From contig CAZQXX010000004.1 of assembly GCA_964597105.1 (NCBI GenBank), positions 1 to 38,727 on the forward strand: a DNA stretch of 38,727 nucleotides, given 5' to 3'. Below the pieces are notes generated by a model, which had not been told where the DNA came from, did not search any database, and was given only the letters and a program-made list of their open reading frames with translations. Positions within the stretch are counted from its first letter, which is position 1; every line of letters begins with the position of its first letter. Positions 11,008 to 13,611 of the stretch are shown here, in pieces. Made by a program: the position numbers and the translations under genes. Origin of the DNA: an uncultured Anaerolineales bacterium (GTDB lineage: Bacteria > Chloroflexota > Anaerolineae > B4-G1).

Positions 11008-13611
11008 CTACGAGATGGCTTCCAGCAGGCGCTCAGTCAGGGCCTTGGCGCCCGGGTCGAGGTCCCCGACCGGGCCGACGCAGGCGGGGCACCCGTCGGT
11101 GCAGCCGCATTCCCTCACCCGGGCCAGTGCGGCCTCCAGCAGTTCGTCGTGGATCCCGTATATCTGAGGGCTGAGCCCGGCACCGCCCGGGACGGTGTCA
11201 TACAACGTCACTGTCGGCAACCCCGTCTCTGAGGACCGTGCCTCCACGGCCGAGCCCAGGTCCCCCGGCGCGCACATCAGATGGAGCGGCGCCAGGTTCC
11301 GCAGCAAGTAGGCGAGCCCTCCCAGGGCGCCGCGGGCCCCCCGCGCCCGCTCGGCCTGTCGATGACAGGACGGGCAGAGCGTGATCAGATTGTCGAGCTT
11401 GTTCGCCAGCTCGTAGAGGTCGTTCTTGCCCGGCACGTAGCCGAAAGATCGGAACGGCGTCAGGTGGTGGACGTCGTGGCGGCGTCCGTCCCGCTCCGGC
11501 GCGCCGCAGCGTCGGCAGCGGTAGTGGTCTCTAGCACGGGCCGCATCCCGCTGCGTTGCCCAGTTGGGGCCATAGTCGATCTTCGGTTTGAGAATCCCCG
11601 CCCGTTGCAGATCTTCGGTCAGCTCTTCCGAGAGGGCCAGCCAGTAGCCCATAGTCTCCATCTTCTGCTCCGGTAGGTCTATGGGGGCCCAGCTCAGCAC
11701 CTCGTGCGTATACCGCTTGATCCTCCGGTACCCTGTCGCCCGGCTTGTGATCATCAGCTCGCCATAGGCGTGCGAGGCCGGCGAGCGGGCCGCAACACGC
11801 TCGGCGTCCCGCGGAGCGCCGCGCGCAGCGCCCCTGTCATCGGTAGCACGGAGCACCTGGAGCACGTCCACCTCCGTCGTGCCACTCGCCCGGGTGTAGT
11901 AATCGAGCGTGGTGGGCCGGACGTGGGCGATGCCATCCTCCCAGTCCAGGGACTCCACCACGTAGGTCTGGCCGGCGTGCAGATACACCGCGCCTTCATG
12001 CACGAGGGTCGGGGCGCTGGGACGATCCATCTCCCCGATCACTTCCGGCGCGTCGCTCTCTTCCCCTGCGACCTTCTGGATGACGATGTTATCCGGGGAG
12101 CTGGTCCGCAGAGAGAGCTGTGCCGCTGGATACCCTTCGCCGATCCACGCGTAGTGGCCGTTGTAGCGGTGGAGCAGATCCTCGTCCGCCAGCGCGTCGA
12201 GGACTGCCTCGACCTCATCGAAGGTGCCGAACGACTCTCCGGGCTCGAAGGGCAGCTCGAACGCCGCGCAGGCCAGATGATTGGTGAGCACGGCCAAGTT
12301 GTCGGGGTCAAGCAGCGCATGTTCGACTGGCTGGCCGAAGAAGAAATCGGGATGCGTGATGAGATACTGATCCAGGGGCAGGGCGCTGGCGACCAGCACG
12401 GCGGTCGAAAGCCCCGCCCGCCGGCCGGCGCGGCCCGCCTGCTGCCACGCGCTGGCCATGGTCCCGGGATAGCCGGTCATGACGCAGGCGCTGAGCTGAC
12501 CGATGTCGATGCCCAGCTCCAAAGCGTTGGTGGCCACGACGCCTCGGACCGTCCCATCGCGCAGGCCGTGCTCGATGGCGCGTCGCTCGCTCGGGAGATA
12601 GCCACCCCGGTACCCCTCGATCTGGTGGGGGTCGCCGCCCGCGCCCGTCACGGCGTCCCGGAGGTAGCCGAGCAGCACCTCAGTGGTCAGTCGAGCGCGG
12701 GCGAAGACGATGGTCTGCACGTCGGCCGTCAGGAATTGAGCGGCGACGTCCTTTGCCACCAGGGTGGCGCTGCGCCGAATCCCGAGCTGTCTGTCGACCA
12801 GCGGGGGATTATAGAGTACGACGTGCTTCTCGCCTTGAGGGGCGCCGTCGTCGTCGACCAGGCTGACCGGGGCCTCGACTAGGCGCTCCGCCAGCTCGCG
12901 CGGATTGGCGATGGTGGCCGAGGCACAGATGAAACGGGGGTCGGCCCCATAGAAACGACAGATTCGTTGCATCCGCCGCAGCACGTTCGCCACGTGTCCG
13001 CCGAACACACCGCGGTAGGTGTGTATCTCATCGAGCACCACGAAGCGCAGGTTGCTGAAGAAGCGCATCCAGCGCGTATGATGAGGGAGGATCCCGACGT
13101 GGAGCATATCCGGGTTGGTGACCAGAAGCCGGGCCTCATTGCGGATCGTCGAGCGCTGGGCGGATGGGGTATCCCCGTCGTAAGCGCGCACCTTGATCGG
13201 CGCGGCCAGCCTCGAGGCCCGGGCCTTGAGGCCGGATATCATGGATGATAGCTCTGCAATCTGATCGTGAGCCAGCGCTTTCGTGGGGAAAATGTAGAGC
13301 GCACACGCCTGCGGATCGTTGAGAAGCGTGTCCACGACGGGGGCGTTATAGGCCAGGGTCTTCCCGGAGGCGGTGGGCGTGGAGAGGACGACGTGCTCGC
13401 CCGTCAGCGTGGCTTCCATCGCTTGAGCTTGATGGACGTAGGGCTGGTCAATTCCCTGGGCGCGGATGGTGGCCACCAGCCGCGGGTCGAGCGCCTTCGG
13501 CCAGCGGGCGGTGCGTGCCTGGCGCGCGGGAACCCGCTGCCACGCGGTCACACACCGCATAAACGAGGGATCCTGCCGAAAGGAATCCAGAACGTCGGAA
13601 AGCAATGCCAT
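11008..13611 (-). CDS. mrfA: MrfA/YprA-type (COG1205) DExH-box helicase with C-terminal DUF1998 Zn-Cys cluster and an inserted HNH-like module
   Basis: Walker A TPTASGKT (residues 78-85); DEIH (194-197); helicase C motifs ([22 protein letters not shown]); terminal cluster [11 protein letters not shown] (835-844). The extra segment at 696-751 carries CxxC..HH..N..CxxCH. Confidence 0.85.
   Translation of the reverse strand: [867 protein letters not shown]

What the first reader, a model, noticed from the sequence alone, without database searches (positions are those of the whole stretch)
11344..11562. HNH-like nuclease module inserted into an MrfA-type DExH/DUF1998 helicase
Residues about 684-756 of the 867-aa helicase read [72 protein letters not shown]. 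That gives CxxC ... HH ... N ... CxxCH, which is the layout of a zinc-stabilised beta-beta-alpha-Me (HNH) nuclease. The segment sits between the SF2 core (GKT at 83-85, DEIH at 194-197) and the terminal four-Cys cluster [11 protein letters not shown] (835-844) that defines the COG1205/DUF1998 C-terminal domain. As far as I recall, Bacillus subtilis MrfA (YprA) has no nuclease domain and depends on the separate exonuclease MrfB. The protein here is roughly 100 aa longer, which fits an insertion. A repair helicase with its own endonuclease next to the Zn domain would be a distinct architecture. It could incise at the lesion that the helicase then unwinds.
Basis: partly seen in the sequence, partly recalled or inferred. 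Interest (0 to 1): 0.75.

Follow-up and report, generated by a model that had tools for sequence, protein, structure and literature searches.

The report
MrfA repair helicase with built-in HNH nuclease
A DNA-repair helicase of the MrfA family in a Chloroflexota bacterium carries a conserved, apparently active HNH DNA-cutting domain that the studied Bacillus enzyme lacks, and this may supply the cut missing from the published model of that repair pathway.

Summary
The gene at window 11008-13611 (-) encodes an 867-aa MrfA/YprA-type DExH helicase (E 8e-219 to B. subtilis MrfA). About 100 residues (662-762) replace a 14-residue linker between the CON element and the MZB/DUF1998 zinc domain. The insert is a bona fide HNH domain: Pfam PF01844 scores 41 bits against a cut-off of 21.4. 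An AlphaFold model (pLDDT 90) finds only HNH nucleases at the top of a PDB fold search. H716/N741/H750 and the two CxxC pairs align with the catalytic residues of the phage GVE2 HNH nickase. These residues are invariant or near-invariant in 81 helicases, and the domain diverges at the same rate as the motor. The architecture is not unique to this window. It is the usual form in Chloroflexota of the Anaerolineae lineages (80 of the 80 best-matching loci kept, each from a different GTDB species genome; over 120 protein clusters), annotated only as "DEAD/DEAH box helicase". I found no paper describing it. The HNH does not replace MrfB: an MrfB exonuclease gene lies 2 kb away (15638-16936), and it forms an operon with the helicase in 8 other loci. 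The most likely function, which is inferred, is a helicase-coupled nickase in MrfAB-type excision repair. I rate it a new variant of a known kind, of moderate interest.

The parts
11008..13611 (-). Whole gene: 867-aa MrfA/YprA-family DExH helicase with an embedded HNH domain
   Evidence: ORF listing. Pfam finds DEAD, Helicase_C, WHD_HRQ1, HNH and MZB. E 8e-219 to B. subtilis MrfA 6znp.
12898..13434 (-). RecA1 / DEAD domain (residues 60-238) with motif I GKT 83-85 and motif II DEIH 194-197
   Evidence: PF00270, E 1.4e-31. Motif positions. K84, D194, E195 and H197 are conserved in every locus that holds this part.
12418..12723 (-). RecA2 / Helicase_C domain (residues 297-398)
   Evidence: PF00271, E 1.6e-13.
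12103..12312 (-). Hrq1-type winged-helix domain (residues 434-503)
   Evidence: PF22982, E 1.3e-9.
11326..11628 (-). The insertion relative to B. subtilis MrfA (residues 662-762): a short helix, a linker and the HNH domain. It lies between the last CON strand and the first MZB helix.
   Evidence: Gap between the two aligned stretches to 6znp. MrfA domain borders are CON 557-630 and MZB 631-749 (PMC7797055). Secondary structure from the models.
11353..11517 (-). HNH catalytic core (residues 699-753): C699-x2-C702, H715-H716, N741, C746-x2-C749-H750
   Evidence: PF01844 at 36-41 bits. Residue-by-residue alignment to GVE2 HNH: H716=H93, N741=N109, H750=H118. Conserved in 80-81 of 81 helicases.
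11077..11316 (-). MZB / DUF1998 zinc-binding domain (residues 766-845) with C835, C837, C841 and C844
   Evidence: PF09369, E 1.5e-21. The four Cys are invariant in 81/81.
15638..16936 (+). MrfB-type DEDDh 3'-5' exonuclease gene (432 aa), the canonical partner of MrfA. It is transcribed divergently, 2 kb from the helicase start.
   Evidence: PF13482 RNase_H_2, E 1.5e-39. E 9.9e-39 to the B. subtilis MrfB core 8un9 over residues 55-275. The same layout is seen in the closest relative, L001.
14449..14976 (+). Ogt (O6-alkylguanine-DNA alkyltransferase), in the same divergent gene string as MrfB. Its membership in the system is uncertain.
   Evidence: PF01035 E 1.5e-33 and PF02870. The linkage is conserved only in L001.

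Best explanation
Shown: the gene encodes a repair-branch MrfA/YprA SF2 helicase. A zinc-stabilised HNH (His-Me finger) domain has been inserted at the hinge between the CON beta-sheet and the MZB zinc domain. The insert keeps every residue needed for catalysis and has been inherited vertically with the helicase across Anaerolineae-type Chloroflexota. Its conservation equals that of the motor domains. The partner exonuclease MrfB is still encoded nearby.

Inferred: the HNH is an active metal-dependent nickase whose access to DNA is governed by the helicase. In B. subtilis MrfA, the MZB domain is one of the walls of the funnel through which the 5' side of the loading strand enters. MZB rotates by about 63 degrees when DNA binds, and the displaced strand is thought to leave along its surface. 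In the model, the last HNH helix (carrying H750) runs directly into the first MZB helix. The nuclease should therefore ride on this rotating 'drum', at the duplex-facing front of a 3'-to-5' translocase.

Proposed cycle: the helicase loads and translocates 3'-to-5'. When it stalls at a bulky adduct or a junction, the HNH cuts one strand next to the block. The lesion-bearing strand is then peeled off, and MrfB degrades it from the 3' end. This would supply the incision step that the published B. subtilis MrfAB model does not specify.

The confidence of 0.55 is for the whole statement including the inferred nickase role. The shown part alone (a real, conserved, catalytically intact-looking HNH inserted in an MrfA-family helicase) I hold at about 0.95.
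For: Family membership: E 8e-219 and collinear alignment to MrfA 6znp; Pfam DEAD, Helicase_C, WHD_HRQ1 and MZB; best NCBIfam hit TIGR03817.

HNH identity: Pfam 41.3 bits, E 1.7e-10. The AF2 model of the insert has pLDDT 90.1, with strands at 713-716 and 742-745 and a helix from 747. The first ten Foldseek PDB hits, and most of the list, are HNH nucleases: GVE2 HNH, McrA, Cap5, Cas5-HNH, IscB/Cas9 HNH and T4 Endo VII. The closest PDB sequence is GVE2 HNH, whose H93, N109 and H118 align with H716, N741 and H750. GVE2 HNH is a DNA nickase, and H93A leaves nicking undetectable (PMC5304195).

Selection: C699, C702, H715, H716, N741 and C746 are present in 81/81 helicases, and C749 and H750 in 80/81 (one gap), down to about 41% overall identity. 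They are also invariant in a separate set of 17 metagenomic proteins. Mean pairwise identity of the HNH is 0.79, against RecA1 0.80 and MZB 0.785. Across 80 species it is 0.556, against core 0.595 and MZB 0.544. The HNH co-diverges with the core (Spearman 0.52) about as well as MZB does (0.56).

Repair context: an MrfB homologue lies 2 kb away, forms an operon with the helicase in 8 loci, and is fused to it in P0264. Ogt is adjacent. Neighbouring genes are housekeeping, not defence genes.

Geometry and the missing step: MrfA domain borders, the entry funnel, the MZB rotation and the displaced-strand path are from PMC7797055. The Burby & Simmons model has recognition, unwinding and exonucleolysis but names no incision activity. 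MrfB prefers linear DNA and acts only slightly on nicked plasmid.
Against: No biochemical data exist for any member. Nuclease activity, strand choice, substrate and ATP coupling are all inferred.

Whether the active site faces the DNA path is therefore unknown.

Foldseek E-values are weak in absolute terms (best 1.9e-3), as is usual for small domains.

MrfB is within the flanks of only 9 of 80 related loci. A strict functional coupling of HNH and MrfB is therefore not demonstrated at the genome level.

Some HNH domains need partner proteins or act mainly in binding.

The protein scores 682 bits against TIGR03817, below its curated 874-bit cut-off, so NCBI would not call it an equivalog of that family.
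Confidence: 0.55

Rival explanations
1. The insert is a catalytically silent zinc-ribbon or DNA-binding module. It would be a domesticated HNH used to recognise a lesion or DNA junction, or to stabilise the MZB domain, without cutting DNA.
For: Small zinc-binding inserts are common in the OB-CON-DUF1998 canopy of other YprA helicases, where they are thought to aid target recognition (PMC12458937). MZB has itself been proposed as a lesion sensor. No activity data exist.
Against: A binding-only role would not require the general-base His and the metal ligands. Yet H715, H716 and N741 are kept in 81/81 sequences and H750 in 80/81 (one gap), down to about 41% overall identity. All of them align with the residues of GVE2 HNH whose substitution reduces or abolishes nicking. 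Inactivated nuclease domains in this family typically lose such residues, according to the descriptions.
Confidence: 0.15
2. The protein is an anti-phage helicase-nuclease effector, analogous to DruE (Druantia) or the ARMADA helicases, and not a repair enzyme.
For: The YprA family is central to DISARM, Dpd, Druantia and ARMADA, and these helicases often carry fused nucleases. PADLOC models BrxH, DruE and DrmA hit the motor core at E 1e-16 to 1e-42.
Against: The PADLOC hits cover only the generic SF2 core, while the match to B. subtilis MrfA is full-length at E 8e-219. The window and the 80 related loci carry housekeeping genes: proline racemase, HAD, Ogt, cell-envelope enzymes, tsaE-like and rimI-like genes. 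No conserved defence partner was found. The only recurrent partner is MrfB. The gene behaves as a vertically inherited core gene of a class, and no copy was found on plasmids.
Confidence: 0.08
3. The insert is a selfish, in-frame homing-endonuclease element (free-standing HNH or intein-like) that parasitises the helicase gene and gives the host no function.
For: HNH domains are typical homing endonucleases. An in-frame, non-intein homing insertion with a hidden HNH has been reported in a phage methylase (PMC11855218, title and abstract). The closest non-helicase relatives are free-standing HNH proteins with zf-FCS repeats, including haloarchaeal plasmid genes. This fits an origin by capture.
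Against: There are no Hint or intein domains. The insert is present in every close and distant homologue recovered: about 120 clusters, 80 species, and 81/81. It always sits at the same site. Its divergence tracks the host protein and its conservation equals that of the motor. This is the pattern of an old, fixed, selected domain, not an active mobile element. An origin by capture remains possible.
Confidence: 0.04

Closest known systems
Bacillus subtilis MrfA (YprA), PDB 6ZNP/6ZNQ/6ZNS, with its partner MrfB
   Same: The domain order is NTR-RecA1-RecA2-WH-OB-CON-MZB, with a four-Cys zinc site and DExH motifs. Similarity is full-length (E 8e-219). An MrfB-type DEDDh exonuclease is encoded nearby.
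   Different: About 101 residues carrying an HNH nuclease replace the 14-residue CON-MZB linker. MrfB is divergently transcribed 2 kb away, not in an operon, although the operon is kept in 8 related loci. There is an extra Arg/Ala-rich stretch in CON around residues 590-610. The protein scores below the TIGR03817 cut-off.
Nuclease-bearing YprA-family defence helicases (DruE of Druantia with PLD domains; ARMADA with Vsr/PD-(D/E)xK; TALON with RNase H), from Bell et al. 2025 preprint PMC12458937
   Same: They belong to the same helicase family and share the principle of one polypeptide holding a YprA motor and a nuclease. They also have zinc-binding inserts in the OB-CON-DUF1998 canopy.
   Different: In those proteins the nucleases are C-terminal fusions of PLD, Vsr, EEP or RNase H folds. 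The HNH fold is not mentioned in the main text of that survey (its only supplement hit is an EVE-HNH structure match for a DrmA domain). Inserts are described for the defence branch, not for the 'YprA only' or MrfAB repair branch. Here the nuclease is HNH, is internal at the CON/MZB junction, and the protein belongs to the repair branch in a housekeeping context.
Human ZRANB3 (SNF2-type translocase with a C-terminal HNH domain)
   Same: Both are SF2 motors fused to an HNH domain. [quoted passage not shown] It is the best functional analogy for helicase-gated nicking.
   Different: The motor subfamily is unrelated (SNF2 dsDNA translocase and annealing helicase, against a 3'-5' ssDNA helicase). 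In ZRANB3 the HNH is at the C-terminus, not embedded. It is eukaryotic and PCNA-regulated. No homology beyond the domain families was tested.
Phage GVE2 HNH endonuclease (PDB 5H0M) and related cos-packaging HNH nickases
   Same: It is the closest solved structure by both fold (Foldseek rank 1) and sequence (E 0.002). It shares the N-terminal W-x3-R...D-x-Y-x-C-x2-C helix, the [CxxC]2 zinc site and the H/N/H catalytic residues. It is a metal-dependent DNA nickase.
   Different: It is a free-standing 130-aa phage protein that works with terminase. Identity is only about 23-25%. The helicase-embedded domain has 24 residues between the H715-H716 pair and N741, about nine more than the aligned stretch of GVE2 HNH.
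Free-standing zf-FCS-repeat + HNH proteins (220-450 aa; metagenomic), which resemble haloarchaeal 'HNH endonuclease' genes
   Same: They are the nearest sequence relatives of the insert, at 55-62% identity over about 77 residues. The shared signature is YGPNWxxQRxxARxRDxYxC and HDVHHxxPFRxFGY.
   Different: They have no helicase and no MZB domain. Their N-terminus consists of repeated CxxCG...FCSxxC zinc fingers. Their function is unknown.

Membership tests
MrfA/YprA repair-branch helicases (COG1205, DUF1998/MZB-containing SF2) | SF2 DExH core with motif I (GKT) and motif II (DExH) | tested here: met
   PF00270 E 1.4e-31 and PF00271 E 1.6e-13. GKT at 83 and DEIH at 194.
MrfA/YprA repair-branch helicases (COG1205, DUF1998/MZB-containing SF2) | C-terminal MZB/DUF1998 domain with four closely spaced Cys | tested here: met
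   PF09369 at 77.3 bits against a cut-off of 24.2. C835, C837, C841 and C844 are invariant in 81/81.
MrfA/YprA repair-branch helicases (COG1205, DUF1998/MZB-containing SF2) | Collinear full-length similarity to a characterised member, including the WH, OB and CON regions | tested here: met
   phmmer to 6znp gives E 8e-219, with query 20-661 = MrfA 20-633 and query 763-857 = MrfA 648-739. PF22982 WHD_HRQ1 is present.
MrfA/YprA repair-branch helicases (COG1205, DUF1998/MZB-containing SF2) | Score above the curated cut-off of NCBIfam TIGR03817 (874.1 bits) | tested here: not met
   682.1 bits in two stretches. It is the best-scoring family by far but falls below the hypothetical-equivalog cut-off, so I file the protein as a variant and not an equivalog.
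MrfA/YprA repair-branch helicases (COG1205, DUF1998/MZB-containing SF2) | Association with an MrfB/YprB DEDDh exonuclease | tested here: met
   Window 15638-16936 has PF13482 at E 1.5e-39 and matches 8un9 at E 9.9e-39. MrfB is directly downstream of the helicase in 8 of 80 related loci. The linkage is absent within the flanks of the other loci.
MrfA/YprA repair-branch helicases (COG1205, DUF1998/MZB-containing SF2) | 3'-5' DNA helicase activity and a role in mitomycin-C adduct repair | not testable with these tools
   This needs biochemistry and genetics.
HNH / His-Me finger endonucleases (Pfam PF01844, group 1 of Jablonska et al. 2017) | Profile match above the gathering score | tested here: met
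   36.3 bits in the whole protein and 41.3 bits in the excised segment, against 21.4. About 120 homologous clusters carry the same precomputed Pfam hit.
HNH / His-Me finger endonucleases (Pfam PF01844, group 1 of Jablonska et al. 2017) | beta-beta-alpha-metal fold | tested here: met
   The AF2 model has pLDDT 90.1, with strands at 713-716 and 742-745 followed by a helix from 747. The first ten Foldseek PDB hits, and most of the list, are HNH nucleases with probability 0.97-1.00, but E-values are only 2e-3 to 6e-2.
HNH / His-Me finger endonucleases (Pfam PF01844, group 1 of Jablonska et al. 2017) | General-base His, structural Asn, metal-ligand His, and a [CxxC]2 zinc site | tested here: met
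   H716, N741, H750 and C699/C702/C746/C749 align with GVE2 H93, N109, H118 and C76/C79/C114/C117. They are conserved in 80-81 of 81 sequences.
HNH / His-Me finger endonucleases (Pfam PF01844, group 1 of Jablonska et al. 2017) | Metal-dependent DNA cleavage | not testable with these tools
YprA-family anti-phage systems (DISARM, Dpd, Druantia, ARMADA, BRIGADE, TALON) | Conserved operon partners (DrmB/C/MTase, DruH etc.) and/or a C-terminal PLD, Vsr or RNase H nuclease, in a defence-island context | tested here: not met
   PADLOC hits cover only the SF2 core. Neighbouring genes in the window and in 80 loci are housekeeping, with no recurrent partner except MrfB. There is no C-terminal extension after MZB.
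Intein or active homing-endonuclease insertion | Hint splicing blocks, or a sporadic presence/absence distribution with phylogenetic incongruence | tested here: not met
   No Hint or intein Pfam hit. The insert is present at the same site in all 81 helicases. HNH divergence correlates with core divergence (Spearman 0.52, against 0.56 for MZB).

The most novel reading that the evidence does not exclude
The embedded HNH is the dedicated incision activity of a self-contained, UvrABC-independent excision-repair machine: the MrfA motor senses and stalls at a bulky adduct, the HNH nicks, and MrfB resects. The nuclease would be mechanically gated by the ATP- and DNA-driven rotation of the MZB 'drum'. 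If so, the Chloroflexota enzyme would show how the MrfAB pathway gets its entry point. It would also predict that an unidentified trans-acting nickase exists in Bacillus and other HNH-less lineages.
Probability: 0.3. Interest if true: 0.7.

Novelty: new variant of a known kind. Interest (0 to 1): 0.5.

Why it matters
MrfAB is a recently recognised excision-repair route that works independently of UvrABC. Its published model has lesion recognition, unwinding and 3'-5' degradation, but it names no activity that makes the first cut. MrfB works poorly from a nick. A whole bacterial lineage in which the helicase carries a conserved, catalytically intact HNH at the DNA-entry side gives a direct, testable hypothesis for that missing step. 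It also provides a natural separation-of-function system (H716A against K84A).

The finding extends the catalogue of nuclease modules in the YprA family. The most comprehensive survey I could read lists PLD, Vsr/PD-(D/E)xK, EEP, RNase H and MrfB, but not HNH, and it describes canopy inserts only for the defence branch.

The practical consequence is modest. Hundreds of database entries now labelled only 'DEAD/DEAH box helicase' are helicase-nucleases.

Tried and rejected
1. Homologue search with the 116-aa insert alone returned mostly short gene fragments and said little about distribution. The exhaustive representative search replaced it.

2. P0122, which looked like a free-standing 134-aa copy of the insert, is a piece of a frame-shifted helicase on a long-read contig. 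I rejected it as a stand-alone relative.

3. The genome scan with the 17-sequence alignment A3 failed because no stretch was conserved enough. I repeated it with 6 sequences.

4. Full-length AlphaFold modelling with 45 close homologues gave pLDDT 57.5. Only the secondary structure of residues 651-750 was used.

5. I looked for a LexA/Cheo box (GAAC-N4-GTTC) in the 106-bp divergent promoter region 13612-13717. None was found, and the window-wide count equals chance. SOS control is therefore not supported.

6. The cluster look-up for the zf-FCS+HNH proteins gave no taxonomy. A plasmid tblastn pointed to haloarchaeal HNH genes.

7. Clustering of neighbouring genes across the 80 loci found no conserved partner other than MrfB.

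8. The idea that the HNH substitutes for a lost MrfB was rejected, because MrfB is present in the window and in operons.
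Full report
OBSERVATION. The window holds one long ORF at 11008..13611 on the minus strand, 867 aa. That is one to two residues off the stated 684-756 and 11344-11562. GKT is at 83-85, DEIH at 194-197 and [11 protein letters not shown] at 834-844. 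The longer 867-aa start is the right one, not the 850-aa gene call, because homologues conserve the first 17 residues.

IS IT AN HNH DOMAIN? Pfam gives five domains in this order: DEAD 60-238, Helicase_C 297-398, WHD_HRQ1 434-503, HNH (PF01844) 699-753 and MZB/DUF1998 766-845. The HNH hit scores 36.3 bits in the whole protein. On the excised 102 residues it scores 41.3 bits (E 1.7e-10), against a gathering score of 21.4. An AlphaFold2 model of residues 655-770, built on a 50-sequence alignment, reached pLDDT 90.1 and pTM 0.73. It shows strand 713-716 (D-V-H-H), strand 742-745 (N-L-I-T) and a long helix from 747 that carries C749 and H750. This is the beta-beta-alpha-metal layout.

A Foldseek search of the PDB returned HNH nucleases in the first ten places and through most of the list. 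They were phage GVE2 HNH (5h0m, rank 1), McrA, CBASS Cap5, Cas5-HNH, IscB and Cas9 HNH domains, and T4 endonuclease VII. Probabilities were 0.97-1.00 but E-values were modest, 2e-3 at best. By sequence the closest solved protein is also GVE2 HNH (E 0.002). The alignment puts H716, N741 and H750 on GVE2 H93, N109 and H118, and the two CxxC pairs on C76/C79 and C114/C117. GVE2 HNH is a metal-dependent DNA nickase. Its H93A mutant has undetectable nicking, and N109A and H118A are strongly impaired (PMC5304195).

IS IT AN INSERTION? Against B. subtilis MrfA/YprA (PDB 6znp) the protein scores E 8e-219 in two collinear stretches: 20-661 = MrfA 20-633, and 763-857 = MrfA 648-739. About 101 residues therefore replace 14. 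According to the MrfA structure paper, CON spans 557-630 and MZB 631-749 (PMC7797055). The insert thus sits exactly at the CON/MZB junction. TIGR03817, the best NCBIfam family, is likewise matched in two pieces and falls below its curated cut-off (682 against 874 bits).

HOW WIDESPREAD IS IT, AND IS IT SELECTED? Almost all of the 120 best protein clusters (70% identity or more) carry PF01844 between the helicase and MZB domains. The named ones are from Chloroflexota or Anaerolineae. An exhaustive search with the insert alone found 4015 proteins at E<=1e-3 and 860 at E<=1e-10. Among the top 150 there are at least 17 full-length, 826-948-aa helicases from different 50%-identity clusters, with the match at about residues 600-850.

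A scan of one genome per GTDB species kept the 80 best loci. All have the HNH+MZB arrangement. All but two are labelled Chloroflexota: Anaerolineae/Anaerolineales, Ardenticatenaceae, Promineifilaceae, Caldilineales, Thermoflexales, Aggregatilineales, or a generic 'Chloroflexia'. The two exceptions are contigs of 16.7 kb and 6.2 kb binned as Acidobacteriota and Zixiibacteriota. Cluster look-ups gave Caldilineaceae and Anaerolineales again.

In 81 helicases (the window plus 80 loci, down to about 41% overall identity) C699, C702, H715, H716, N741 and C746 are present in 81/81. C749 and H750 are present in 80/81, with one gap. The same residues are invariant in 17 diverse metagenomic sequences. 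The HNH is as conserved as the motor. In the close set, mean pairwise identity is 0.79 for the HNH, against 0.80 for RecA1, 0.83 for RecA2 and 0.785 for MZB. Across the 80 species it is 0.556, against 0.595 for the core and 0.544 for MZB. Its divergence tracks that of the core (Spearman 0.52) about as well as MZB does (0.56). This is the signature of an old, fixed domain under purifying selection, not of a mobile element or a decaying relic.

CONTEXT. Here MrfB has not been lost. ORF 15638-16936 (+) is a PF13482 protein (E 1.5e-39) and matches the B. subtilis MrfB core 8un9 at E 9.9e-39. In that alignment the conserved D-x-E of the DEDDh motif is visible. The gene lies 2 kb from the helicase start, in a divergent string HAD-Ogt-hypothetical-MrfB. 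The HAD ORF probably starts at the ATG at 13718, which leaves a 106-bp divergent intergenic region.

The closest relative, L001, has the same layout. Eight other HNH-helicase loci (L060, L066-L070, L072, L075) have MrfB immediately downstream on the same strand, which is the classical mrfAB operon. One metagenomic protein (P0264) combines HNH, MZB and the MrfB-type exonuclease in one chain. In the remaining loci no MrfB lies within the flanks, and no other partner is conserved. Those loci fall into what Bell et al. call 'YprA only'. The rest of the window is housekeeping and cell-envelope genes: glycosyltransferases, proline racemase, ornithine cyclodeaminase, YkuD, a TPR protein, prepilin peptidase, an O-antigen ligase-like protein and amidohydrolases, plus two tRNAs. 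PADLOC hits are confined to the generic SF2 core. No HNH-MrfA was found on plasmids. A defence role is therefore unlikely.

ORIGIN OF THE DOMAIN. The nearest non-helicase relatives are 220-450-aa proteins with repeated zf-FCS-type zinc fingers followed by a C-terminal HNH. They share 55-62% identity with the insert and the signature YGPNWxxQRxxARxRDxYxC...HDVHHxxPFRxFGY. Among cultured organisms, similar free-standing HNH genes occur on haloarchaeal replicons. Capture of such a gene into the CON-MZB linker is a plausible origin, but this was not tested.

MECHANISM (inferred). MrfA is a 3'-5' helicase. The 5' side of the loading strand enters through a funnel formed by RecA2, OB, CON and MZB. 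MZB rotates about 63 degrees on DNA binding and rolls the OB-CON canopy in and out. The displaced strand is proposed to exit between MZB and RecA2. In the high-confidence model, the HNH helix that carries H750 continues into the sequence that aligns with the first MZB helix. The nuclease is therefore likely to move with the MZB drum at the duplex-facing front of the enzyme.

I propose a helicase-gated nickase. When translocation stalls at an adduct or junction, the HNH cuts one strand next to the block. The lesion-bearing strand is unwound, and MrfB degrades it. This would fill a gap in the published model, which lists recognition, unwinding and exonucleolysis but names no incision. In that work MrfB prefers linear DNA and acts only slightly on nicked plasmid. 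Nuclease activity, strand choice and coupling are all inferred. The full-length model was too poor (pLDDT 57.5) to check the geometry.

COMPARISON WITH WHAT IS KNOWN. The protein is a member of the MrfA/YprA repair branch by every sequence criterion tested except the TIGR03817 equivalog cut-off. It is a member of the HNH superfamily by profile, fold and catalytic residues.

Helicase-nuclease fusions are common. From my own knowledge these include Cas3, RecB/AddA and Dna2. ZRANB3 is an SF2 translocase with an HNH that nicks in an ATP-dependent, structure-specific way. Within the YprA family, C-terminal PLD, Vsr, EEP and RNase H nucleases are documented.

I could not find any description of an HNH in MrfA/YprA helicases. 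The searches 'MrfA'+'HNH', 'DUF1998'+'HNH' and 'YprA'+'HNH' returned no such description in the titles and abstracts listed. I read three of the papers in full: the 52,000-protein YprA survey and its supplements, the MrfA structure paper, and the His-Me finger classification. None of them mentions it. That survey also describes canopy inserts as a feature of the defence branch. The architecture is visible in precomputed Pfam annotations of hundreds of database proteins named only 'DEAD/DEAH box helicase' or 'DUF1998 domain-containing protein'. It is therefore unrecognised but not unseen.

VERDICT. The observation and the structural interpretation are confirmed. The feature is a lineage-wide variant, not a singular oddity, and it coexists with MrfB. 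I rate it a new variant of a known kind, with interest 0.5. It is a clean, testable lead on the incision step of MrfAB repair, but it is conceptually close to many known helicase-nuclease fusions.

Noticed in passing
window 15638-16936 (+): An MrfB-type DEDDh exonuclease gene (432 aa; E 1e-38 to PDB 8un9) lies 2 kb from the helicase on the opposite strand.
   Followed up: yes
window 14449-14976 (+): An Ogt (O6-alkylguanine-DNA alkyltransferase) gene sits between the helicase and MrfB in the same divergent gene string. This suggests a small DNA-damage cluster, but the linkage recurs only in the closest relative, L001.
   Followed up: partly
window 13466-14392 (+) and 13612-13717: As listed, the HAD-hydrolase ORF overlaps the helicase start by 146 nt. 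Its Pfam match begins at residue 98 and there is an in-frame ATG at 13718, so the real start is probably there. That leaves a 106-bp divergent promoter region. No LexA/Cheo box was found in it.
   Followed up: partly
window 14960-15610 (+): A 216-aa Pro/Thr/Ala-rich ORF with no Pfam hit lies between Ogt and MrfB and overlaps the Ogt stop by 17 nt. It may be a secreted or lipoprotein-like protein, or a spurious high-GC ORF.
   Followed up: no
helicase residues ~590-610 (window ~11782-11844, -): A second, smaller difference from B. subtilis MrfA is an Arg/Ala/Asp-rich stretch in the CON element ([23 protein letters not shown]). It is variable among close homologues and modelled with low confidence.
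   Followed up: no
P0264 (metagenomic protein, 775 aa): This protein fragment has HNH and MZB followed by an MrfB-type RNase_H_2 exonuclease in one chain. It looks like an HNH-MrfA/MrfB fusion, so both nucleases can sit on one polypeptide.
   Followed up: partly
P0164-P0290 (metagenomic proteins); plasmid hits H1-H15: The closest free-standing relatives of the insert form a family of 220-450-aa proteins with 2-4 zf-FCS-type zinc-finger repeats and a C-terminal HNH. Similar 'HNH endonuclease' genes occur on haloarchaeal replicons (Natrinema, Halobacterium, Haloarcula). Their function is unknown.
   Followed up: partly
L017 (DATHSI010000335.1) and L024 (DASRZI010000344.1): Two HNH-MrfA loci are binned as Acidobacteriota (Sulfomarinibacteraceae) and Zixiibacteriota, yet their sequences fall within the Chloroflexota range. 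This could be mis-binning of short contigs or lateral transfer.
   Followed up: no
L081 3578-5405 (ENA contig_75113): Here the HNH-helicase is split into several called genes (a 490-aa helicase part and a 134-aa HNH part). This is probably frameshift error in a long-read assembly, and it produced a misleading 'stand-alone HNH' protein (P0122).
   Followed up: yes
window 2627-8687 and 27484-32805: The window is rich in cell-envelope glycosylation genes: a GT2 family glycosyltransferase, two PMT_2-type proteins, a 931-aa beta-helix protein, and a 1074-aa protein with a Wzy_C O-antigen-ligase domain. This fits an ordinary chromosomal region and not a mobile or defence island.
   Followed up: partly
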